This document shows, in pieces, positions 1-9,129 of a stretch of DNA of 24,011 nucleotides. The notes beneath the pieces are model-generated. The model saw nothing but the letters and a program-made list of their open reading frames with translations, searched no databases and had not been told where the DNA came from. Each line of letters begins with the position of its first letter. Position 1 is the first letter of the stretch. The DNA comes from a virus, in the UHGV virus genome UHGV-0298230; one strand, given 5' to 3'. Position numbers and translations under genes: made by a program.

Positions 1-25
1 AAATAAGCTCTTAAGCCGCGCCAAT

Positions 26-46
26 GGGTAAAATAGCGGGTAAAAT
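26..46 (+). repeat. Two tandem direct copies of the 9-mer GGGTAAAAT (26-34 and 38-46, 3-bp spacer); candidate integrase arm-type binding sites
   Basis: Exact 9-mer repeated twice; the same 9-mer recurs in both orientations at 236-280 on the other side of the putative core. Confidence 0.45.
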
Positions 47-104
47 TTTTTTCACATCTAAAAAACACCATTCCAATCAATCCCCTGCCGCTTCAAGTAG
101 ATGT

Positions 105-119
105 CTGCAGGGGACACCA
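105..119 (+). other. Candidate att core: CTGCAGGGGACACCA, resembling the 3' end of a tRNA (T-stem 3' half, acceptor 3' strand, discriminator, CCA)
   Basis: Ends in ...GGGGACACCA; resembles the 3' end of tRNA-Arg argW as I recall it; no matching 5' acceptor strand 60-90 nt upstream, so it is a fragment and not a complete tRNA; lies between the two 9-mer repeat clusters and just upstream of int. Confidence 0.5.
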
Positions 120-235
120 TTTATCAGTTCGCTCCCATCCGTACCAGTCCGCAAAATCCCCTGAATATCAAGCCTTCCGTAGATTCACAGTTCGTCATGG
201 TTCGCTTCAGATCGTTGACAGCCGCACTCCATGAC

Positions 236-280
236 GGGTAAAAAGTGGATAAAATAATTTTACCCACCGGATTTTTACCC
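236..280. repeat. Cluster of the same 9-mer in both orientations: GGGTAAAAA 236-244, GGATAAAAT 247-255, ATTTTACCC 257-265 (inverted), ATTTTTACCC 271-280 (inverted); candidate arm-type sites overlapping the int translation start
   Basis: Direct reading of sequence; the repeats end 1 nt before the int ATG at 281. Confidence 0.45.
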
Positions 281-1438
281 ATGCTCACCGTTAAGCAGAT
301 TGAAGCAGCAAAGCCGAAAGAAAAACCATACCGCCTTCTCGATGGTAATGGCCTGTACCTTTATGTCCCTGTATCCGGGAAAAAGGTATGGCAGCTTCGC
401 TACAAGATTGACGGTAAGGAGAAAATCCTGACCGTCGGAAAATATCCGCTTATGACTTTGCAGGAAGCAAGGGATAAAGCATGGACTGCGAGGAAAGACA
501 TCTCGGTTGGCATCGATCCGGTAAAAGCGAAAAAGGCTTCGTCTAACAACAATTCCTTTAGCGCCATTTACAAGGAATGGTACGAGCACAAGAAGCAAGT
601 CTGGTCTGTAGGGTATGCGACTGAACTTGCAAAAATGTTTGATGACGACATTTTACCTATCATCGGCGGCCTTGAAATTCAGGATATTGAGCCGATGCAA
701 CTGCTGGAAGTAATCCGCAGATTTGAAGATCGCGGTGCAATGGAGCGAGCCAACAAAGCCCGCAGAAGATGCGGCGAGGTTTTCCGTTACGCTATTGTTA
801 CTGGTAGGGCTAAATATAACCCGGCACCTGACCTTGCTGACGCCATGAAGGGGTACCGCAAGAAGAACTTCCCGTTTCTTCCTGCAGACCAGATCCCGGC
901 ATTCAATAAAGCACTGGCAACATTTTCAGGAAGTATCGTATCGCTCATTGCCACCAAGGTTTTACGCTACACTGCCCTAAGAACGAAAGAGCTTCGTTCC
1001 ATGCTATGGAAGAACGTCGATTTTGAAAACAGAATTATCACCATCGACGCCAGTGTGATGAAAGGACGCAAAATTCATGTGGTCCCGATGTCAGACCAGG
1101 TGGTTGAACTTCTCACTACGTTAAGCTCCATCACCAAACCAGTATCAGAGTTTGTTTTTGCCGGGCGCAACGATAAGAAGAAGCCAATCTGCGAGAATGC
1201 GGTACTGCTTGTGATCAAACAAATCGGCTATGAAGGTCTGGAAAGCGGTCACGGATTCAGGCATGAATTCAGCACGATTATGAACGAGCACGAATGGCCT
1301 GCTGACGCTATTGAAGTACAACTTGCACATGCCAACGGCGGATCTGTGCGCGGGATTTACAACCATGCTCAGTATCTCGATAAACGCAGAGAAATGATGC
1401 AGTGGTGGGCGGACTGGCTTGATGAAAAGGTGGAGTGA
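281..1438 (+). CDS. intS: Tyrosine integrase, P4/IntS-type (N-terminal DUF4102-like arm-binding domain plus C-terminal catalytic domain), 385 aa
   Basis: ORF 245..1438 begins with GTG; the first ATG is at 281 (MLTVKQIEAAKPKEKPYRLLDGNGLYLYVP...), a typical P4-family integrase N-terminus. The sequence matches my recollection of E. coli CPS-53/KplE1 IntS. C-terminal HxxR...Y-type region is present. Confidence 0.9.
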   Translation: MLTVKQIEAAKPKEKPYRLLDGNGLYLYVPVSGKKVWQLRYKIDGKEKILTVGKYPLMTLQEARDKAWTARKDISVGIDPVKAKKASSNNNSFSAIYKEWYEHKKQVWSVGYATELAKMFDDDILPIIGGLEIQDIEPMQLLEVIRRFEDRGAMERANKARRRCGEVFRYAIVTGRAKYNPAPDLADAMKGYRKKNFPFLPADQIPAFNKALATFSGSIVSLIATKVLRYTALRTKELRSMLWKNVDFENRIITIDASVMKGRKIHVVPMSDQVVELLTTLSSITKPVSEFVFAGRNDKKKPICENAVLLVIKQIGYEGLESGHGFRHEFSTIMNEHEWPADAIEVQLAHANGGSVRGIYNHAQYLDKRREMMQWWADWLDEKVE

Positions 1439-1590: not shown

Positions 1591-1953
1591 ATGTTAAAGC
1601 TATTTGCAAAGTACACCTCGATTGGCGTGCTGAACACACTTATACACTGGGTGGTTTTTGGTGTATGTATCTATGCCGCGCATACCAATCAGGCTCTGGC
1701 AAACTTCGCAGGTTTCGTTGTGGCTGTGAGTTTTAGCTTCTTCGCGAATGCAAGATTCACATTCAAAGCATCGACTACAACGATGCGCTACATGTTATAT
1801 GTCGGGTTCATGGGAACACTGAGTGCAACTGTTGGATGGGCTGCTGATAGATGTTCACTTCCTCCAATTGTCACTCTCATCACCTTCTCAGCCATCAGTC
1901 TTGTGTGCGGTTTCGTCTATTCAAAGTTCATTGTCTTTAGGGATGCGAAATGA
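1591..1953 (+). CDS. gtrA: GtrA, bactoprenol-linked glucose flippase (120 aa, 4-TM small membrane protein)
   Basis: Size, hydrophobicity and sequence ([24 protein letters not shown]...) typical of GtrA/YfdG; stop overlaps the gtrB start (ATGA at 1950-1953). Confidence 0.9.
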
Positions 1954-2873
1954 AGATATCTCTTGTAGTTCCTGTCTTCAATGAAGAAGAAGCAATACCA
2001 ATTTTTTATAAAACGGTACGTGAATTCGAAGAGTTGAAGCCATACGAAGTGGAAATTGTTTTCATAAATGACGGCAGCAAAGACGCTACGGAGTCAATTA
2101 TTAATGCTCTGGCTGTTTCAGATCCTCTAGTTGTTCCGCTGTCATTTACACGAAACTTTGGTAAAGAACCAGCATTATTCGCAGGGTTAGACCATGCAAC
2201 AGGCGATGCTGTTATTCCTATTGATGTTGACCTGCAAGACCCGATTGAGGTTATTCCTCATCTGATTGAAAAGTGGCAAGCAGGTGCCGATATGGTGCTT
2301 GCTAAACGATCTGACCGATCAACGGATGGCAGACTGAAGAGGAAAACCGCCGAGTGGTTCTATAAGCTACATAACAAAATTAGCAACCCGCAGATCGAGG
2401 AAAACGTTGGTGATTTCCGCTTGATGTCTCGCGAGGTGGTGGAAAACATTAAGCTCATGCCAGAGCGCAACCTGTTTATGAAGGGCGTGCTGAGCTGGGT
2501 TGGCGGACGCACCGATGTCGTTGAATATGCACGAGCAGAACGAGTCGCAGGCAGCACTAAATTTAACGGATGGAAACTGTGGAACCTTGCCCTTGAGGGG
2601 ATAACCAGTTTCTCAACATTCCCGCTGCGCATGTGGACTTATATCGGATTGTTCGTTGCTGGAATTGCTTTTCTTTATGGTGCATGGATGATTTTTGACA
2701 CGCTTGTATTCGGCAATGCTGTTCGTGGATATCCATCGTTATTGGTCTCCATTCTTTTCCTTGGAGGTATTCAACTTATCGGTATCGGTGTACTTGGTGA
2801 ATATATAGGAAGAATTTATGTGGAAGTAAAATGCAGACCACGATATATTTTAAAGAAAAAGGAACAATCATGA
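1950..2873 (+). CDS. gtrB: GtrB, bactoprenol glucosyltransferase (GT2 family, 307 aa)
   Basis: N-terminal GT2 motifs ([10 protein letters not shown]..., DGSKD, D-x-D region) and two C-terminal TM helices; classic position after gtrA. Confidence 0.92.
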
Positions 2874-4141
2874 ATAGCATAAACACAAACAGAATATTTT
2901 TGTTTTTGATTATATTTGTTATATGTTTCATCATATTCTGCATGCGTCGTCCTGATATTATTTCACACCCTCAACTATGGGCAGAGGATGGACGGGTATG
3001 GCTTGGTCAGGCTTATGCATTGGGCCCTCTGAAATCTATAATTTTAGTACAGGATGGTTACTATCAGACAATTTCAAAACTTGTTGCGACATTCTCCATG
3101 CTGTTCCCATTATATCTATCACCTTTTATTTTCACTGTTATTGCATTATCGATAAGATGCGTAATAATAACCTTCATACTATCTAATAGATTCAAAAGCG
3201 TTTCTATATATCCAAGAATATTAATTTCAATCTTCATTTTAACTATGCCACACCTTGAAGAGGTGCATGCCAACGTAACCAACACTCATTGGTATATGGC
3301 AATATGGCTATTCTTGGTGCTGGTAGCAGATAGAACTGATGGATTATATTGGAAAGCACACGACTTTTTGGTGATGGTTGTGGCTGGCCTAAGTGGGCCA
3401 TTCATTGTTTTTTTAGCTCCTGTTGCCTTACTAAGAATTACAAACGGAGATATTCTAAAAACTCCTATCAATGCAGTAAAAAATGCATTCAGAAACTTAA
3501 ACTTATTCTACATAACTTTCGCAATAGTGTGTTTAATTCAGATAGCCGCGATACTTCTCTCTTCTAAAGGCTCTCGACCGACCGCGCCACTTGGTGCAGG
3601 TGTAGGGATTTTGATGGATATACTATCCTCCAGAGTATTCCTTGGCTCATTTCTTAGTGAGAGCTTATCAAGAAAGGTGTGGGATCTGCATGCTTTAAAT
3701 TACTTTGTTTCTTTATGTGGCCTATCAATTAGTGCATACGTGCTATTAAAAGGGAACTGGAAAGAAAAAGCATTAGTGATTTTTCCTTATCTTATGTTGG
3801 GATTTGCCCTTGCCAGACCAGTCATTGCAAGAGACCAGCCTCAATGGCCTCTCTTACAAATAGGACCAGGACAAAGGTATTTTGTCATACCGGCCATATT
3901 TTGGGTGTCGATACTTCTAGCATTCACTAATATGCTTCATGGGCATGTAAAGAAATTAGCATTTTGCATAGTGGCTTGCTCAGTAATTATATCTGGAATT
4001 GTTAGCTTTAAAATTGAAAAAAGACCTAACAATGGATGGATACAAGAGGCATACAAATATGAGACAGCAGAGCCAGGGAGTCGCGTGAAAATGCACACAC
4101 TACCACACTCAGGATGGTATTTAGATATAATAAAAAAATAA
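2831..4141 (+). CDS. Serotype-specific O-antigen glucosyltransferase (GtrC-type polytopic membrane protein), 436 aa; alternative start at 2870 (423 aa)
   Basis: Highly hydrophobic multi-TM protein directly after gtrB; visibly AT-rich compared with flanking genes, as is typical of type-specific gtr genes. ATG at 2870 overlaps the gtrB stop (ATGA) and has AAGGAA 6 nt upstream, so it may be the true start. Confidence 0.8.
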
Positions 4142-4142
4142 G

Positions 4143-4170
4143 TTAAGGGCGGTATTCGCCCTTAATTTTA
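4143..4170. terminator. Bidirectional rho-independent terminator between the convergent gtrC and tailspike genes
   Basis: Perfect hairpin TTAAGGGCG-gtatt-CGCCCTTAA (4143-4165), flanked by an A-run upstream and TTTTA downstream; sits between stops at 4139-4141 (+) and 4168-4170 (-). Confidence 0.75.
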
Positions 4171-6060
4171 TCTAACTCTTGTTATCATAAAGTCAAAATC
4201 TGCATCAGCCAAGTTGCCAGAGTTATCAGTGGTCACGATCCTGATGGCTGTTGTGCTTGGCTTGCCTGCATATAGCACCTTAAACCCGTTAGTTTTAGTA
4301 CTTGCTACTACCTGAAAGTCATTTACTGTTGGTCCATATAAGAAAGCGCTATCAATTGAATATACCCCTGTGGATTGTTTTGCTATTGTTAAATAAGATG
4401 GTGCATACGCAACACCTGCCGACGTTACACTTCCAGAAATCACCGATGAAGTGCTTACCGTAGATATAGACTTGCTTATGTCCTCACTAAAATGACAGGT
4501 ATCCATTCCATTTAAAGTCATATAAGCACCTCCTGAGATAAATGGTCTCGAAGCGCTAGGTATGTATCCAAAAGCTGTTTGAGTAAAAAAATGACACCCA
4601 TTAAGGTTAACAATGACACGCCCACCACCAGTGCTTAACGCTCTAATCACATATGTACAATAACCGCCTGATGAATTCCCCCTTATAAATGTGCATGAAT
4701 TGATATTTACAATAAGAGGTGAAGATGTCATGTTATTAACCTGAATGTCTGATATTCCTTGATTTGCTTCAAAATAGCAATCAGATATATTTATCACAGA
4801 CATTGGTTCTTTAGCTCTTAGGTAAACACCTCCTGTACCAGTATCTCCCTGAGTTCCATTACCCTCAAAATTGCAGTTGTTTAGATTTATCCTTGTGCCT
4901 ATCTCTCCTTCAATTCCAAATTTTGAGTTACCACTAAAAACACCATTTATTTTTAGTGCGTTAACTGTGCTGTTTGTTCCTCCGTTGATGTACATACCGT
5001 AGTTATTATATTGAGAGTTAATTCTGTTAAATTCACTGGTAAGAACTCCTGTTATTACCAAGCCTGAATTATTTCTTACGAGATACACATCCTCAACTTT
5101 TAGGTATGCAGCATTGCTTAACCTTAATCCAACTCCAGAGTTACCAGTACCATAAACAGTGAAATTAGATAACTTCATACCGCTATGCACACCCTGCCCG
5201 CCCCCTTCTGAATTACCTATATACTCAAGGAAATCATTGCCATTGGTGTTAAATGCAGTATTCGCCATTGACTCGCCAGTAAAGTCAAACCTCTTACTTT
5301 TTCTTCCCATTACAGGAAAATTTGATCCAGAGTGGTTTACTGTAACTTTTGTGGTAGAATTGTATTGCCCATCCTTAATTTCTATACCTCCAGTACCAGT
5401 ATTAAGCATATTTTGAATAGCAGGTGAAACCTCTGTTCCAGATTTCACGCCAAACCATGAAGCCATTTTTGCGCCATTATATGAACGCTTCCAGCGACGG
5501 CCTACTGCATCAATTAATACTGTTCCATCATCATCTTCTGTCGTTGTATCATCTGAATCAAGGAAGAACCATCCTTCTCCTCCATCCTGATTATGTTCTC
5601 TTCCTACGCATTTTATTTGCGTTCCAGAAACGTTAGATGTCCTTATTTGTTCATAAGTCGCCCCAACAATATAAGATTCACCATCAACTGCTGCTAATTT
5701 GTTTATGAAAGCTGGCAATGCCTGATCGGGGTCATACTTCAGCACATTAGGAAAATAGAACTGCTGCGTACCATACGCATCATAAACAGCCATAGAATGG
5801 CCTTGCACGGTAACGAATTTGGCAATCTGTCCGTTATATACAGGGTAACCAGCCGCATTAATGATGATTGGTTGCGAAACAGGAACGTGAGAACCATCTT
5901 CGTTCTCTACATAAACCTGAATCTGGTTTTCAGGATTTACCGGGTCAGTGTCAATTTTACCGATATAAATTTTGCCATTGGCAACCGCTTTAAAAGAACG
6001 CGCCATAGTGAAGAGTTGCGAAGGCATACTCACTACAACATTGGCTGTAATGTCTGTCAT
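4168..6060 (-). CDS. Tailspike protein (630 aa): conserved P22-type N-terminal head-binding domain plus parallel beta-helix receptor-binding/O-antigen-cleaving domain
   Basis: N-terminal ~113 aa ([43 protein letters not shown]...KYDPDQ) closely resembles P22 gp9 head-binding domain; remainder has beta-helix-like repeats ([33 protein letters not shown]). Confidence 0.9.
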
Positions 6061-6135
6061 TTAATTTGCTCCAGATACAAGGAATCGCCGCAGCGTGGCT
6101 ACGGTTGGTATTTGTTGCATACCGAAACGGTACGA

Positions 6136-6164
6136 TTGTTGATTTGTACAGTAGGTTTTACGAT
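6136..6164 (+). promoter_or_regulatory. Candidate sigma70 promoter for the second mnt-like gene (-35 TTGTTG 6136-6141, 17-bp spacer, -10 TACGAT 6159-6164), adjacent to palindrome TACCGaaaCGGTA (6120-6132)
   Basis: Hexamer match and spacing only; weak. Confidence 0.3.
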
Positions 6165-6192
6165 GCCATTCCACCCATTTGGTGAGGCATTG

Positions 6193-6450
6193 ATGATGTA
6201 CAGCAAATACGATGAGGCGCAGTTCCACTTGAGGCTTACGCACGAGTTGCACGCCAAGATTAAGCAACGTGCAAAAATGAATAACAGGTCTATCAATTCC
6301 GAAATTGTGGCTACGATGGAAGAATCGCTCTCCAAACCATCACCTGTAAGCGGGTATCGTGATGAAGAAGAGAGGCTTGCCTCATTAATCTCGGAACGAG
6401 TAAAAGAAGTTGCGGCTGATATTCTTAGAAAAGAAAAAACCCGCGATTAA
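6193..6450 (+). CDS. mnt: Mnt-like ribbon-helix-helix repressor (Arc/Mnt family), 85 aa
   Basis: Sequence MMYSKYDEAQFHLRLTHELHAKIKQRAKMNNRSINSEIVATMEESLSKPSPVSGYRDEEERLA... closely parallels P22 Mnt as I recall it (…NGRSMNSE…SKPSPVTGYRNDAERLA…); SD GGTGAGG 6 nt upstream of the ATG at 6193. The long ORF 5797..6450 in the track is an artefactual N-terminal extension antisense to the tailspike. Confidence 0.8.
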   Translation: MMYSKYDEAQFHLRLTHELHAKIKQRAKMNNRSINSEIVATMEESLSKPSPVSGYRDEEERLASLISERVKEVAADILRKEKTRD

Positions 6451-6458
6451 GCGGGTTT
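6437..6458. terminator. Hairpin terminator AAACCCGC-gattaa-GCGGGTTT between the convergent mnt-like gene and the ant operon
   Basis: 8-bp GC-rich stem; on the minus strand it is followed by a T-run (TTTTTCTTTTC); the loop contains the mnt stop codon. Confidence 0.6.
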
Positions 6459-6464
6459 AATTGG

Positions 6465-6686
6465 TTAGTTATCAAAAAGTCCGTAAGTTTCTTCTTCTTC
6501 AGGTGTAAGGGGAAGAATCTCTACTCTATCTATAGATACCTTTTCAATGTACCCATGAGGTCTACTTAAAATTAAAGCTCTCTCATGCCACAGAACTCCA
6601 AGAATGTGATACCTTCCAGCATCTCCTTTTACCCTGGCTCTTCCTTTGATTCTTGGCGGCATAATGCCATATCTTTTCTTTGCCAT
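6465..6686 (-). CDS. Hypothetical small protein (73 aa), basic N-terminus and acidic C-terminus
   Basis: Start ATG overlaps the stop of the upstream gene (TAATG), indicating translational coupling; MAKKRYGIMPPRIKGRARVKGD...LTPEEEETYGLFDN; no family recognised. Confidence 0.55.
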   Translation of the reverse strand: MAKKRYGIMPPRIKGRARVKGDAGRYHILGVLWHERALILSRPHGYIEKVSIDRVEILPLTPEEEETYGLFDN

Positions 6687-7414
6687 TATGCAACATTGCT
6701 CCCATGAATCAGGTGTTGTAGTGCTTTAACACCCTCCGCATTGTAGCGGAATGCTTCCACCTGTTTGCTTGAATGCGCAGATTTATCCAAGAAGAACTTC
6801 CCGTACTGCTCAGTTTTGAGGTTGTTTGCGTTAGCAATGCGACCAATCTTGTTGGCCGTTACTCCAAGCTGCTCTGCAACCTCCCCTGCTGAGTAGTAAT
6901 GCTCTTCTATTGCCGGAAGAGGTATTGCATTAAAACCAACGAGCGGGTTGATTATACTTGCTGCCGCTGTCTGCTTTGCCTCCGGCGCAAGATTTGGCAT
7001 CAGATCGAACAGATTGGTAACAGCTTCAACCGTCATTTTCAATGTTCGCGCTTGACGATACTCAACAAGTCCACTCGCTGATTTACCGCTTTTAATGTGC
7101 GCTTCTTGCATACTTTCAAGTTGGTCTACCAGTGAGCGGCGAACGGCTTTTGACTCGCGAGCGGCAACTCGCAATGCTTGCTTGATTGACATCTCAATGA
7201 TAACCATCGAAGTTTTGTTCGCTTTTTGCACTACACTTTTTGTGTAGTGCTCTCCATCCAATTCATCTTCAATTTTCTCGATGAATTTGTTATTACGAAC
7301 CTCCGGCTCACCGCACTGTCTACGAGCCTGATTTACCATCTCAAGCAGGCGCTGGCTGTCAATGGTTTTATCCGTGACAACGGATCCGATGTTTGCTACA
7401 TTCTTAAAAGTCAT
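6686..7414 (-). CDS. Antirepressor-type regulatory protein, possibly Rha/ORF6N-like N-terminal region and KilA-C/ANT-like C-terminal region (243 aa from ATG at 7414)
   Basis: AAGGAA 6 nt upstream of the ATG at 7414; C-terminal ...YYSAGEVAEQLGVTANKIGRIANANNLKTEQYGKF resembles antirepressor KilA-C-type motifs; the ORF track start at 7501 is a TTG directly after the upstream stop. Confidence 0.65.
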   Translation of the reverse strand: MTFKNVANIGSVVTDKTIDSQRLLEMVNQARRQCGEPEVRNNKFIEKIEDELDGEHYTKSVVQKANKTSMVIIEMSIKQALRVAARESKAVRRSLVDQLESMQEAHIKSGKSASGLVEYRQARTLKMTVEAVTNLFDLMPNLAPEAKQTAAASIINPLVGFNAIPLPAIEEHYYSAGEVAEQLGVTANKIGRIANANNLKTEQYGKFFLDKSAHSSKQVEAFRYNAEGVKALQHLIHGSNVA

Positions 7415-7482
7415 TAGGCATTCCTTATGTGGTAGTAAGGGTGTGACATAGGCCGCCAGCAGCACACTGGCGGTTTTCTTTT
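7409..7482 (+). ncRNA. Candidate sar-like antisense RNA complementary to the start codon and SD of the 6686..7414 gene
   Basis: Plus-strand terminator CCGCCAG-cagcaca-CTGGCGG followed by TTTTCTTTT (7453-7482) lies in the intergenic gap of a minus-strand operon; candidate promoter -35 GTGACA (7374-7379), -10 TACATT (7397-7402); the transcript would contain UUCCUU, anti-SD to AAGGAA. Confidence 0.4.
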
Positions 7483-7501
7483 GCGCCGTCCTGTGCACCA
7501 A

Positions 7502-8140
7502 TCAATGAATCCATTCCTCGCCGCGAAGTTTTGCCAGCATTGGCTGAGCGTTCTTTACGACAAAATTGTTGGTATCAAGATTCTTCATTTCACGAAGAAG
7601 CGATTTCTTGGTTTCTTCTGACATGTAGCGAGTCTCATATGCAATATCGTAAATCCTTCCAGAAAGCTCAGAACCAATTTGCTTCATTCCTGGGTAGATG
7701 TGTTTGCACATTTGTTGACTCTTCTCCATCCACAATTGTAAGTAGCAGAGATTAACCAGCTCTTCGTCAGTAAACTGTTTTGCAATCGGTGAGCATTCTG
7801 CCTGCCGATCCAAAATATCCAGCACCCAGCGGCGGAACTCTTTGGCCTTGGGCGTAGAAGCAAACATCGCCACCAAGTGAGCGCCTCGGAGCGAGTAAAC
7901 TCTGACCGATTTGTTACGTAAGCTATTGTTTATCCCGTTGACCTTCATATTGAGGGTCAATGACATTGAGTCGGAAAATTCGTCAGCATTACGGGCATAA
8001 ATTTGGCTGATGGCATCAGTTTTTTTATAGCCGAGAGCCTTAGCTAGTTCGGCGGAGGTGAACCAGATAGACCCGCCCTCTGTTACAGGGTTAAAAGTGA
8101 ATCCTTGGAAGTTATAATCTGATTTTGCTACAATATTCAT
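7502..8140 (-). CDS. Antirepressor-type protein with Bro-N/AntA-like N-terminal domain (212 aa from ATG at 8140)
   Basis: AAGGAA 6 nt upstream of the ATG at 8140; N-terminal region (FNPVTEGGSIWFTSAELAKALGYKK...VRVYSLRGAHLVAMFASTPKAKEFRRWVLDIL) matches the Bro-N/AntA pattern; the track's longer ORF start at 8224 overlaps the arc-like gene and lacks an SD. Confidence 0.7.
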   Translation of the reverse strand: MNIVAKSDYNFQGFTFNPVTEGGSIWFTSAELAKALGYKKTDAISQIYARNADEFSDSMSLTLNMKVNGINNSLRNKSVRVYSLRGAHLVAMFASTPKAKEFRRWVLDILDRQAECSPIAKQFTDEELVNLCYLQLWMEKSQQMCKHIYPGMKQIGSELSGRIYDIAYETRYMSEETKKSLLREMKNLDTNNFVVKNAQPMLAKLRGEEWIH

Positions 8141-8215
8141 GTTAGTTTCCTTGGGTACGGTTACTGACATAGAGGCCCGGTTTGTGTTCGCGCACTTCCG
8201 GGCTTCACTATTTTT
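8141..8215 (+). ncRNA. Candidate sar-like antisense RNA covering the SD and start of the Bro-N antirepressor gene
   Basis: Plus-strand candidate promoters (-35 TTGGAA 8105-8110 / -10 TACAAT 8129-8134, or -10 TATAAT 8113-8118) inside the 5' end of the minus-strand gene; imperfect stem-loop 8173-8205 followed by TATTTTT (8209-8215) in the arc-ant gap; arrangement matches P22 sar RNA. Confidence 0.4.
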
Positions 8216-8390
8216 ACTGGGCATTAGCTCTTTCCTCTCTCAGGCTTTTAGCCAGTCGCTGCACAATCGCAGAGTTGATAGAAATTCCATCCATTTCAGC
8301 TACGCGTCTGATCTCCTCCTTCATTCGCGCTGGCAAACGAAGCTGGAAACTCTGACTTTTACGACCACTGTAAAGAACATCGCTCATCAT
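8214..8390 (-). CDS. arc: Arc-like ribbon-helix-helix repressor (58 aa from ATG at 8390; track ORF extends to 8405)
   Basis: ...SQSFQLRLPARMKEEIRRVAEMDGISINSAIVQRLAKSL... has the Arc/Mnt RHH signature; GGAG 6 nt upstream of the ATG at 8390; divergent from the mnt-like gene across an operator-rich region, as in P22 immI. Confidence 0.75.
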   Translation of the reverse strand: MMSDVLYSGRKSQSFQLRLPARMKEEIRRVAEMDGISINSAIVQRLAKSLREERANAQ

Positions 8391-8401
8391 CAATATCTCC
8401 G

Positions 8402-8475
8402 TCATAATGACATCACCGTGATGTCATGACACCATTATGATGCCATTGCTCATAATGTCAATATGATGCTACTGT
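8402..8475. promoter_or_regulatory. Divergent promoter/operator region: 21-bp perfect palindrome ATGACATCA-ccg-TGATGTCAT (8407-8427), repeated TCATAAT/ATTATGA half-sites, and a strong minus-strand promoter (-35 TTGACA at 8461..8456, 16-bp spacer, -10 CATAAT at 8439..8434)
   Basis: Direct reading; the palindrome lies at about +1 of the minus-strand promoter, consistent with an operator for an RHH repressor. Confidence 0.55.
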
Positions 8476-8510
8476 GTTTTTTATTGCTCATATGCCTTGC
8501 GAATAAGAAA

Positions 8511-8762
8511 ATGTCAGAAAAAGACGAATCAAATTTCATAGAAAGATTTACGGTTAGAATGCCTGAAGGCATGCGTAGTGCTATTGCGGAAAGGGCTAAA
8601 CGAAACGGTCGATCTATGAACTCAGAGATAGTTCAAATTCTTGAGGATGCGTTATCATCTGACGTCTCATCAGTAGACAAATCATTAGATCTTAAACAAA
8701 TAAAATCTTTACTTGATAAAATTTCCAACGAGTTACTGGATAGAATCCCAAAAGACACATAA
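8511..8762 (+). CDS. mnt: Mnt-like ribbon-helix-helix repressor (83 aa from ATG at 8511)
   Basis: MSEKDESNFIERFTVRMPEGMRSAIAERAKRNGRSMNSEIVQILEDAL... has the Arc/Mnt signature (NGRSMNSE); same length as P22 Mnt; the track start at 8463 lies inside the operator region. Confidence 0.75.
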   Translation: MSEKDESNFIERFTVRMPEGMRSAIAERAKRNGRSMNSEIVQILEDALSSDVSSVDKSLDLKQIKSLLDKISNELLDRIPKDT

Positions 8763-8808
8763 CAAAACATTATCATCCGGTGTTCTGCTCAAAACTAAGG
8801 AGGTTGGT

Positions 8809-9129
8809 GTGTATATATCGCTATCTACCATTTTTTTCATCTGCTTAGCTATTTGGCTTTTAAGAATATGGCAGGATTGCTCTGTCAGCCATGCTGCTGC
8901 GGTGAGAAATAAAAACGCCCTCATAAAAGAAGCTGAAAACGTTGTCTTATCAATGGATCACCTTTCATGGACCGAGATGACTACAGGGCAACAAGAGGTT
9001 TATGAGTGTGCGATTGAGCGGTTAAGGCTGCTTAAATCGTACAAAAAGAACCACGCACCCGACTCATTCCCATTCCTGAAAGAATGGCCGAGATGGTATG
9101 ACCCGAAAAAAGCAACCATCAACCGCTAA
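8809..9129 (+). CDS. Hypothetical small membrane-anchored or secreted protein (~106 aa) at the position occupied by sieA in P22
   Basis: Strong SD AGGAGG (8798-8803) 5 nt upstream of in-frame GTG at 8809; N-terminal hydrophobic segment (YISLSTIFFICLAIWLLRIW) then a soluble domain; no family recognised. Confidence 0.55.
   Translation: MYISLSTIFFICLAIWLLRIWQDCSVSHAAAVRNKNALIKEAENVVLSMDHLSWTEMTTGQQEVYECAIERLRLLKSYKKNHAPDSFPFLKEWPRWYDPKKATINR

What the first reader, a model, noticed from the sequence alone, without database searches (positions are those of the whole stretch)
1..290. attP-like site: tRNA 3'-end core flanked by GGGTAAAAT repeats that run into the int start codon
A 15-nt tRNA-3'-end-like sequence (105-119) without the rest of a tRNA is flanked by six copies of one 9-mer, two direct on the left and four (two inverted) on the right. 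The right-hand cluster ends 1 nt before the int ATG. This is the expected architecture of attP with arm-type sites and implies integrase autoregulation at its own promoter and start, as reported for the KplE1 intS system. It also indicates the sequence is in phage (attP) form and that the cognate excisionase lies just beyond the left edge.
Basis: partly seen in the sequence, partly recalled or inferred. Interest (0 to 1): 0.55.

Follow-up and report, generated by a model that had tools for sequence, protein, structure and literature searches.

The report
Known argW phage attachment site (attP)

Summary
Six copies of GGGTAAAAT (at most 1 mismatch) lie at 26-34, 38-46, 236-244 and 247-255 on the + strand, and at 257-265 and 272-280 on the - strand. 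Chance expects 0.06 to 0.14 copies. Bases 105-119 equal the last 15 nt of E. coli argW, and ARAGORN finds no tRNA.

- Window 1-120 matches the K-12 KplE1 attR phage side (117/120).
- Window 105-300 matches the attL phage side (194/196).
- The block shared by all three is the published 16-nt core CTGCAGGGGACACCAT (105-120).
- The integrase (281-1438) is 385/385 identical to K-12 IntS.
- Free phages IME10, Sf6 and HK620 carry 1-300 uninterrupted. Prophage records break at base 105 or 119.
- The HK620 GenBank record already annotates this core, these repeats and the promoter.
- Panis et al. 2010 showed IntS and TorI repression of PintS on the attL arm, which differs from the window at two spacer bases only.

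Corrections:
- The core is 16 nt, not 15.
- The last repeat abuts the ATG.
- torI crosses the left edge (codons 2-28, stop 29-31, inside the first repeat).

Verdict: already known, low interest.

The parts
2..31 (+). 3' end of the torI (hkaC / Sf6 gene 18) excisionase (RDF) gene: last 9 codons NKLLSRANG plus stop TAA at 29-31. The gene runs off the left edge of the window.
   Evidence: The translation is identical to the K-12 TorI C-terminus. HK620 hkaC and Sf6 gene 18 end at the same aligned position.
26..34 (+). P-arm integrase arm-type 9-mer GGGTAAAAT. It overlaps the torI stop codon.
   Evidence: Lies within the HK620 'attP repeat_region', which corresponds to window 25-47. Identical in K-12 attR. 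Reads GGGTAAAGT in the Klebsiella phages.
38..46 (+). Second P-arm arm-type 9-mer GGGTAAAAT, 12 nt start-to-start from the first.
   Evidence: Same HK620 attP repeat annotation. Reads GAGTAAAAT in the Klebsiella phages.
59..87 (+). Candidate IHF site (inference only): A-tract at 59-65 followed by AATCAATCCCCTG at 75-87, which has 1 mismatch to WATCAANNNNTTR.
   Evidence: One search finds the match, but such matches are no commoner in the window than chance (30 observed, 29.9 expected). Partly conserved in the Klebsiella phages. IHF is required for KplE1 recombination in vitro (PMC2951348).
105..120 (+). attP core CTGCAGGGGACACCAT. The first 15 nt equal the 3' end of argW, CCA included. This is the crossover region.
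   Evidence: It is the only block identical in the window, K-12 attL and K-12 attR. It equals the published KplE1 16-nt core (PMC2951348) and the 'attP core' features of HK620 and Sf6.
123..150 (+). TorI (RDF) binding block I1;2, with pentamers GTTCG at 127-131 and GTCCG at 147-151.
   Evidence: Coordinates transferred from PMC2951348, anchored on the pattL-gfp insert ends. The block is identical to K-12. GTTC and GTCC are kept in the Klebsiella phages.
186..213 (+). TorI binding block I3;4;5, with pentamers GTTCG at 190-194, GTTCG at 200-204 and GATCG at 210-214. I4 and I5 mediate TorI repression of PintS.
   Evidence: Coordinate transfer. Mutagenesis results in PMC2951348. One difference from K-12, at base 186, the first base of the block and outside the pentamers.
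215..220 (+). PintS -35 box TTGACA.
   Evidence: PMC2951348 gives TTGACA and TAaAAa as the boxes. Invariant in all phages aligned. Lies within the HK620 'prophage excision' promoter and the Sf6 pX promoter.
236..244 (+). P'-arm arm-type 9-mer GGGTAAAAA. This is P'1 of Panis et al. and it contains the PintS -10 box TAAAAA (239-244).
   Evidence: PMC2951348 states that P'1 overlaps the -10 box. Invariant in the Klebsiella phages.
247..255 (+). P'-arm 9-mer GGATAAAAT. It contains the mapped intS transcription start sites T250 and A251.
   Evidence: The start-site transfer reproduces the bases named in the paper. Reads GAGTAAAAC in the Klebsiella phages.
257..265 (-). P'-arm 9-mer GGGTAAAAT in inverted orientation, in the 30-nt intS leader. 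It forms a near-palindrome with the 247-255 copy.
   Evidence: Lies within the HK620 attP repeat_region corresponding to window 256-281.
272..280 (-). P'-arm 9-mer GGGTAAAAA in inverted orientation, abutting the intS ATG.
   Evidence: Becomes a perfect GGGTAAAAT in the Klebsiella phages.
281..1438 (+). intS integrase gene, 385 aa. Arm-DNA-binding domain at residues 2-86, central domain at 93-188, catalytic domain at 199-365.
   Evidence: 385/385 identical to K-12 IntS. Pfam hits PF13356, PF22022 and PF00589. The GTG at 245 lies upstream of the transcription start site.

Best explanation
Window 1-300 is the attP site and recombination-control region of a P22-like (Lederbergvirus) temperate phage that carries the KplE1 / HK620 / Sf6 'argW' recombination module.

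The layout, left to right, is:
- the end of torI (RDF gene)
- a P arm with two direct IntS arm-type sites
- a 16-nt core identical to the 3' end of tRNA-Arg(CCU) argW
- a P' arm with five TorI sites in two blocks
- the sigma-70 promoter PintS
- four IntS arm-type sites (two direct, two inverted) that cover the -10 box, the transcription start and the 30-nt leader up to the intS ATG.

Mechanism. The N-terminal arm-binding domain of IntS binds the TAAA-containing 9-mers while its catalytic domain binds the core. With IHF this builds an intasome that recombines attP with the 3' end of argW. The tRNA is regenerated because the core supplies its last 15 nt. After integration the P' arm and intS lie next to argW (attL), and torI and the P arm lie at the far end (attR).

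Because PintS lies inside the P' arm, IntS bound at the -10-overlapping site represses its own gene about 5-fold. TorI bound at I4/I5 beside the -35 box represses it about 5-fold as well. Integrase is therefore kept low and constant, and excision is governed by RDF supply.

Shown here: sequence identity and architecture. Shown by others on DNA identical at every mapped site: recombination of the KplE1 att sites in vitro, repression, and the start site. Their binding data are in papers I could not read. Inferred: that this copy behaves the same way.
For: - Composite structure: window 1-120 matches K-12 attR (117/120) and window 105-300 matches K-12 attL (194/196). The three-way shared block is 105-120, CTGCAGGGGACACCAT.
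- Only five bases differ from K-12 in 1-300 (47, 51, 89, 174, 186). None lies in a 9-mer, the core, a TorI pentamer or a promoter box; 186 is the first base of TorI block I3;4;5.
- IntS is 100% identical to the K-12 protein and has an Arm-DNA-bind_3 domain.
- Fifteen phage records carry 1-300 contiguously at 96.7-99.3% identity. Prophage records break at exactly 105 (beside tRNA-Arg, or features labelled attL) or at 119 (beside the excisionase). The same breakpoint at 105 appears in E. coli chromosomes.
- GenBank AF335538 (HK620) annotates the attP core at window 105-120, attP repeats at 25-47, 235-256 and 256-281, and a promoter at 215-264. Sf6 annotates likewise.
- PMC2951348 reports the 16-nt core, five TorI sites, P' sites with a TAAA motif, P'1 overlapping the -10 box, the start sites, and repression ratios of about 5 for both IntS and TorI.
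- The coordinate transfer reproduces the named start-site bases T/A at 250/251.
- Phylogenetic footprint: in Klebsiella phages about 78% identical, the 9-mers change at 13% of positions and the -35 and -10 boxes at 0%, against 33% for the remaining noncoding positions (Fisher p = 0.002 for all sites pooled against the rest).
Against: - Nothing contradicts this explanation.
- No binding or recombination was tested on this molecule.
- The two papers that mapped the IntS, TorI and IHF sites by footprinting (JBC 2007; Virology 2010) could not be read. I therefore could not confirm how many of the four right-hand 9-mers are formally named P' sites, or where the IHF and core-type sites lie.
- The generic promoter scan did not call the experimentally mapped promoter. 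It called 231-258 instead, which reflects the non-consensus -10 box TAAAAA.
- Only the last 9 codons of torI are visible.
Confidence: 0.95

Rival explanations
1. The region is attL, the left junction of an integrated prophage, with argW lying to the left.
For: Window 105-300 is 100% identical to many chromosomal attL regions annotated 'tRNA-Arg | intS'.
Against: The 60 nt that would have to hold the rest of argW lie inside the window (45-104) and are unrelated to it: 27/104 identity, which is the random level. ARAGORN and Rfam find no tRNA. Window 1-104 instead matches the phage side of attR and the end of torI.
Confidence: 0.01
2. The junction is a true attP-type sequence, but it sits inside a bacterial chromosome between tandem or rearranged prophage copies, or comes from an assembly that mixes excised-phage reads, rather than from a free phage genome.
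For: Seventeen of 5426 E. coli assemblies hold the uninterrupted 1-300. One is chromosome NZ_CP082824.1, where phage genes lie on both sides and a partially duplicated nin region is present.
Against: This is rare: 17 genomes against roughly 1900 with split attL/attR matches. The best full-length relatives of the window are free phage genomes such as N7, HF4s and Sf6. The window contains no bacterial DNA. The reading also does not change what the site is.
Confidence: 0.1
3. The 9-mers are not integrase sites but incidental A/T-rich promoter and leader elements (a -10-like TAAAA plus a palindrome), repeated by chance or for RNA polymerase binding.
For: One copy contains the -10 box. The motif is A/T-rich. 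The inverted copies give the region a modestly stable RNA fold (z = -2.3).
Against: - Two exact copies lie 190-255 nt upstream of the promoter, on the other side of the core, at the end of another gene.
- Six copies in 290 nt never occurred in 10,000 randomisations.
- The TAAA core is kept in all six copies in divergent Klebsiella phages.
- PMC2951348 treats the TAAA-containing P' sites as IntS arm-type sites and reports that changes altering IntS binding at P'1 also alter promoter activity.
Confidence: 0.02

Closest known systems
KplE1 (CPS-53) prophage recombination module of E. coli K-12: argW-attL-intS ... torI-attR (Panis et al., J Biol Chem 2007; Virology 2010; PLoS Genet 2010, PMC2951348)
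   Same: The 16-nt core is identical. IntS is 385/385 identical. The visible TorI C-terminus is identical. [quoted passage not shown]
   Different: KplE1 is integrated and defective, so its two arms are about 10 kb apart as attL and attR. Here they are joined as attP in an apparently complete P22-like phage. Five base differences in 1-300: four in spacers, one (186) at the first base of TorI block I3;4;5. The third gtr gene downstream is unrelated to K-12 yfdI.
attP of phages HK620 (AF335538), Sf6 (AF547987) and IME10 (JN600960), genus Lederbergvirus
   Same: The xis(torI)-attP-int arrangement is the same, with 97.3%, 98.0% and 99.3% identity over 1-300. The HK620 record annotates the core, the three repeat regions and the promoter at the same positions.
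   Different: A few spacer substitutions. The genes downstream of int differ: gtrABC here, oac in Sf6. No record in the collections searched covers more than 78% of the 24-kb window, which is the usual mosaicism of these phages.
Phage lambda attP (P1, P2 / core / P'1-P'3 arm-type sites; Xis, IHF and Fis sites)
   Same: Both use a heterobivalent tyrosine integrase, arm-type sites on both sides of a short core, RDF sites in one arm and a dependence on IHF. This rests on established knowledge and the introduction of PMC2951348.
   Different: The number, spacing and orientation of sites differ. The RDF sites lie in the int-proximal arm. int is transcribed away from attP from its own promoter inside the arm, so int and xis are uncoupled and int is autoregulated. 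The core lies in a tRNA 3' end.
Satellite phage P4 int / Vis regulation (cited in PMC2951348 as Piazzolla et al.)
   Same: The integrase is of the same broad type, and it is negatively regulated both by itself, at sites near its transcription start, and by its RDF.
   Different: Vis is proposed to act on the int mRNA, whereas TorI acts on DNA next to the -35 box. The att site and the tRNA target are different.

Membership tests
KplE1/HK620/Sf6 argW-type recombination module (IntS-TorI attP) | A 16-nt core CTGCAGGGGACACCAT identical to the 3' end of argW (15 nt plus 1) | tested here: met
   Window 105-120 is identical to argW plus 1 nt, and to both K-12 att junctions. It matches the published core.
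KplE1/HK620/Sf6 argW-type recombination module (IntS-TorI attP) | An IntS-type tyrosine integrase gene directly downstream of the core, transcribed away from it, with an N-terminal arm-binding domain | tested here: met
   Bases 281-1438 are 385/385 identical to K-12 IntS. Pfam hits PF13356, PF22022 and PF00589.
KplE1/HK620/Sf6 argW-type recombination module (IntS-TorI attP) | The torI RDF gene upstream, reading towards attP and ending in the P arm | tested here: met
   Only the last 9 codons and the stop are visible (2-31). They are identical to TorI and at the same distance from the core, 74 nt. The rest of the gene lies outside the window.
KplE1/HK620/Sf6 argW-type recombination module (IntS-TorI attP) | TAAA-containing IntS arm-type sites in both arms, with one overlapping the -10 box of PintS | tested here: met
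   Six 9-mers, all identical to the K-12 sequence. The 236-244 copy contains TAAAAA (PMC2951348). Met at sequence level only; see the last row of this family for binding.
KplE1/HK620/Sf6 argW-type recombination module (IntS-TorI attP) | Five TorI sites (GTTCG / GTCCG / GATCG) in two blocks between the core and the -35 box | tested here: met
   Pentamers at 127, 147, 190, 200 and 210. The blocks at 123-150 and 186-213 reproduce the published 8-12-8 and 8-2-8-2-8 spacing.
KplE1/HK620/Sf6 argW-type recombination module (IntS-TorI attP) | IHF binding sites in the arms | tested here: inconclusive
   One 1-mismatch consensus match at 75-87, and a conserved TATCAAGCC at 166-174.
KplE1/HK620/Sf6 argW-type recombination module (IntS-TorI attP) | IntS/IHF-dependent integration into argW and TorI-dependent excision; IntS and TorI binding to the mapped sites | not testable with these tools
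   Demonstrated by others for KplE1 and HK620 substrates (PMC2951348). Needs bench work for this copy.
attL (prophage-host junction) | A complete host tRNA gene immediately left of the core | tested here: not met
   No tRNA found by ARAGORN or Rfam. Only 27/104 identity to the argW side.

The most novel reading that the evidence does not exclude
The att configuration itself may set integrase supply.

Only in the attP form do torI and the two P-arm IntS sites lie about 200-250 bp upstream of PintS. No intrinsic terminator was detected between the torI stop (31) and the intS ATG (281). Transcripts that start upstream of torI could therefore read through attP into intS; the HK620 record predicts a cII-activated 'phage integration' promoter there. 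IntS bridging the P and P' arms could also loop out or block this region.

Integration would sever both connections and leave only autoregulated PintS. This would be functionally analogous to lambda's configuration-dependent sib control, but built differently.
Probability: 0.2. Interest if true: 0.3.

Novelty: already known. Interest (0 to 1): 0.07.

Why it matters
It matters little beyond correct annotation.

The finding fixes the phage's integration site (the argW 3' end) and the true int start: ATG 281, not the GTG at 245 used in the IME10 record. It shows that the window opens inside torI. It also places the phage in the well-characterised IntS/TorI module, so integration, excision and integrase autoregulation can be predicted from published experiments.

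The module is very common: 1901 of 5426 complete E. coli genomes match part of it. Recognising it quickly is useful for delimiting prophages, but it opens no new question.

Tried and rejected
- ARAGORN and an Rfam gathering scan of the whole window found no tRNA or other RNA family. The attL reading is rejected.
- The IHF consensus scan (WATCAANNNNTTR, up to 1 mismatch) gave 30 matches against 29.9 expected, which is uninformative. The two hits inside 1-300 (75-87 and 239-251) cannot be called on this basis.
- The generic sigma-70 scan called 231-258 rather than the experimentally mapped promoter at 215-244, and found no more sites than in shuffles. I did not use it.
- Folding 1-300 as RNA gave z = -2.3. 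The pairing simply reflects the inverted arm sites, and I saw no case for a structured RNA.
- I tried to read Panis 2007 (JBC) and Panis 2010 (Virology) for the footprinted IntS, IHF and core-type sites. Neither is held. The names P'2, P'3 and so on, and the IHF sites, are therefore left unassigned.
- My first transfer of the paper's coordinates used 'ATG at 2464.565 kb' and put the start sites on A/A at 252/253. Re-anchoring on the insert ends (-223 and +64) gives ATG = 2464567 and start sites at T250/A251, which match the bases named in the paper. The first mapping is rejected.
- Whole-window searches for the source record found no match covering more than 78% of the window, so the left flank could not be recovered.
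- The seventh 9-mer-like copy inside int (650-658, - strand), annotated as an attP repeat in HK620, falls within chance expectation for the window. I do not count it as part of the site.
Full report
**What is in the sequence**

Window 1-300 reads, left to right:
- a short open frame ending in TAA at 29-31
- two exact direct copies of GGGTAAAAT (26-34, 38-46)
- an A/T-rich spacer
- CTGCAGGGGACACCAT (105-120)
- a stretch of about 115 nt holding five GTTCG-like pentamers
- TTGACA (215-220)
- four more copies of the 9-mer: 236-244 and 247-255 on the + strand, 257-265 and 272-280 on the - strand
- ATG at 281, which opens a 385-codon frame.

The pattern search confirms six copies with at most 1 mismatch inside 1-280, and only six more in the other 23.7 kb. 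Whole-window shuffles predict 0.059 copies per 290 nt, so P(>=6) is about 6e-11. None of 10,000 local randomisations exceeded three copies. ARAGORN finds no tRNA in the window and Rfam finds nothing.

Three details need correcting. The last copy abuts the ATG rather than ending 1 nt before it. The identity block is 16 nt, not 15. The first copy overlaps a stop codon.

**What it is**

A megablast search of 1-300 against phage records divides the hits cleanly.
- Fifteen free-phage records carry the whole 300 nt uninterrupted at 96.7-99.3% identity. They include IME10 (99.3%), HF4s and Sf6 (98.0%), N7 (97.7%) and HK620 (97.3%). Two Klebsiella phage records cover 16-300 at about 78%.
- Records deposited as integrated prophages match only 105-300, next to tRNA-Arg or a feature labelled attL (611R6, CUS-3, phiv205-1, VT2phi_272).
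- One record (683R2) matches only 1-119, next to an excisionase.

The same breakpoint at base 105 recurs in E. coli chromosomes. In all, 1901 of 5426 genomes match part of the region, and the listed attL-type hits cover 105-300, many at 100% identity under 'intS | tRNA-Arg'.

I aligned the window with the two ends of the K-12 cryptic prophage CPS-53/KplE1.
- Window 1-120 matches the torI-side junction (attR) at 117/120.
- Window 105-300 matches the argW-side junction (attL) at 194/196.
- Outside those ranges identity falls to random (48/180 and 27/104).
- The only block common to all three is 105-120, CTGCAGGGGACACCAT. Its first 15 nt are the 3' end of argW, CCA included.

[quoted passage not shown] The window is therefore the attP composite of the two phage arms.

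**The genes on either side**

Bases 281-1438 encode a protein 385/385 identical to K-12 IntS. It has an Arm-DNA-binding domain (residues 2-86), a central domain and a catalytic tyrosine-recombinase domain.

Bases 2-31 read NKLLSRANG*, the exact C-terminus of TorI, the KplE1 recombination directionality factor. The spacing is unchanged from K-12: 74 nt from the torI stop to the core, and 176 nt from the core to the intS ATG. The excisionase gene is therefore not 'just beyond' the left edge. It crosses the edge, and its stop codon lies inside the first arm-type repeat.

**Mapping published functional sites onto the window**

PMC2951348 gives old MG1655 coordinates. I anchored them on the pattL-gfp insert: 2464344-2464630 equals -223 to +64, so the A of the ATG is 2464567. 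Under this anchor the two mapped transcription starts fall on T250 and A251, which are the very bases the paper names, 7 nt after the -10 box. An earlier transfer using the rounded '2464.565 kb' was 2 nt off and is discarded.

The TorI blocks map to 123-150 and 186-213 and reproduce the published 8-12-8 and 8-2-8-2-8 layout. The pentamers the authors mutated (GTTCG, GTCCG, GATCG) lie at 127, 147, 190, 200 and 210. The -35 box TTGACA is 215-220. The -10 box TAAAAA is 239-244, inside the 9-mer at 236-244, which matches the paper's statement that P'1 overlaps the -10 box.

The five window-versus-K-12 differences (47, 51, 89, 174, 186) miss every 9-mer, the core, every TorI pentamer and both promoter boxes; 186 is the first base of block I3;4;5. 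The published results therefore transfer directly:
- about 5-fold repression of PintS by IntS
- about 5-fold repression by TorI through I4/I5
- a narrow optimum of IntS concentration for excision
- a requirement for IHF in vitro.

Single mutations of the P' sites other than P'1 did not relieve repression, so the evidence places autoregulation at the -10 box. The GTG at 245, used as the int start in the IME10 record, lies upstream of the start site and cannot be the initiation codon of the PintS transcript.

**Independent support from divergence**

Two Klebsiella phages, Chronis and RCIP0114, share the module at about 78% identity. Differences from the window are as follows:
- 13% of 9-mer positions, with the TAAA core kept in all six copies
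- 18-20% of positions in five 8-nt windows covering the TorI pentamers
- 0% of the -35 and -10 boxes
- 33-35% of the remaining noncoding positions (Fisher p = 0.002).

**It is already annotated and characterised**

The HK620 GenBank record (AF335538) marks:
- an 'attP core' at window 105-120
- 'attP' repeat regions at 25-47, 235-256 and 256-281
- a 'prophage excision' promoter at 215-264.

The Sf6 record marks the core and a pX promoter at 214-243. Later papers treat this att site as standard knowledge. One example is the Kapi1 paper, PMC8787464. A 2023 preprint lists KplE1 among the few heterobivalent recombinase systems whose site organisation is fully characterised.

**Rivals**
- attL is excluded, as shown above.
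- An attP-type junction inside a chromosome cannot be excluded for this window, because the left flank is missing. Seventeen E. coli assemblies hold such a junction, including chromosome NZ_CP082824.1 with phage genes on both sides. This would not change what the site is, and the nearest relatives of the whole window are free phages.
- The idea that the 9-mers are incidental promoter elements fails on the two copies beyond the core, on the statistics, on the conservation and on the published site mutagenesis and repression data.

**What remains unsettled**

The papers that footprinted the IntS, TorI and IHF sites were not available. I therefore cannot say how many of the four right-hand 9-mers are formally named, or where the IHF and core-type sites lie. 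The IHF consensus scan is at chance level.

A perfect 8-nt inverted repeat, TCCCCTGC (81-88) and GCAGGGGA (107-114), is conserved in the Klebsiella phages although part of its spacer (89-97) has diverged. So is GATGT (100-104), just left of the core. These are candidates for core-type or IHF-associated elements, but they remain unexplained.

**Verdict**

It is a textbook attP of the IntS/TorI argW module, identical at every known functional position to experimentally characterised DNA. Novelty: already known. Interest: low.

The only mildly open idea is configuration-dependent coupling of torI and intS transcription across attP. No intrinsic terminator was detected between them, and the HK620 record predicts a cII-activated promoter upstream of torI. 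This is speculative and partly anticipated by that annotation.

Noticed in passing
window 245-1438: The longest ORF for the integrase starts at GTG 245 (397 aa), and the IME10 GenBank record uses that start. It lies upstream of the mapped intS transcription start (T250/A251). ATG 281 (385 aa, 100% identical to K-12 IntS) is the real start, so the IME10 annotation is probably 12 codons too long.
   Followed up: yes
window 24-164 (+) and 124-288 (-): A 46-codon ORF (MGKIAGKIFF...) spans the attP core and is annotated as hkaB in HK620 and as gene 17 in Sf6. A minus-strand ORF over 124-288 corresponds to gp28 of Klebsiella phage Chronis. Integration would split the first ORF, and both overlap protein-binding sites, so they are probably not genes.
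   Followed up: partly
window 81-88 / 107-114, and 100-104: A perfect 8-nt inverted repeat, TCCCCTGC / GCAGGGGA, has its right arm inside the core. Both arms, and GATGT just left of the core, are kept in Klebsiella phages about 78% identical, although the spacer at 89-97 has diverged. It may mark core-type integrase sites (GATGTC - TGCAGGG - GACACC), part of an IHF site, or a hairpin in read-through RNA. Unexplained.
   Followed up: partly
window 1591-4141: An O-antigen glucosylation cassette lies directly after int. It has GtrA (PF04138), GtrB (91% identical to K-12 YfdH) and a third 436-aa gene with no Pfam hit and no similarity to K-12 YfdI. The serotype-specific transferase module has been swapped, as is usual for gtr clusters.
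   Followed up: partly
window 650-658 (-): A seventh 9-mer-like copy (AGGTAAAAT) lies inside the int coding region at the position that HK620 annotates as a further 'attP' repeat. With about 5 such matches expected per window by chance, there is no evidence that it is functional.
   Followed up: partly
L007 (NZ_CP082824.1 1519151-1559450), and records NZ_CP081786.1 and NZ_CP081778.1: Uninterrupted torI-attP-intS junctions occur in 17 E. coli assemblies. One is inside a chromosome, flanked by phage genes on both sides with a partial inverted duplicate of the nin region; this suggests a tandem or rearranged prophage or an assembly artefact. Others are in 39,448-bp records that look like excised circular phage genomes.
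   Followed up: partly
L005 and L006 (Klebsiella phages vB_Kpn_Chronis and RCIP0114), aligned to window 105-120: These phages share the whole torI-attP-int architecture, but their core differs at window positions 105 and 118-120. Only TGCAGGGGACAC is shared and the CCA end is not kept. This hints at a shorter or shifted identity block with their host's tRNA.
   Followed up: no
window 4168-9129: A 630-aa tailspike with a P22-type head-binding domain (residues 1-113) has a C-terminal part that matches no Pfam family. It is followed by an immI-like region with an Ant/BRO-type antirepressor (7502-8224, - strand) and an Arc-like repressor (8463-8762, + strand). This is typical P22-like mosaic content.
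   Followed up: no
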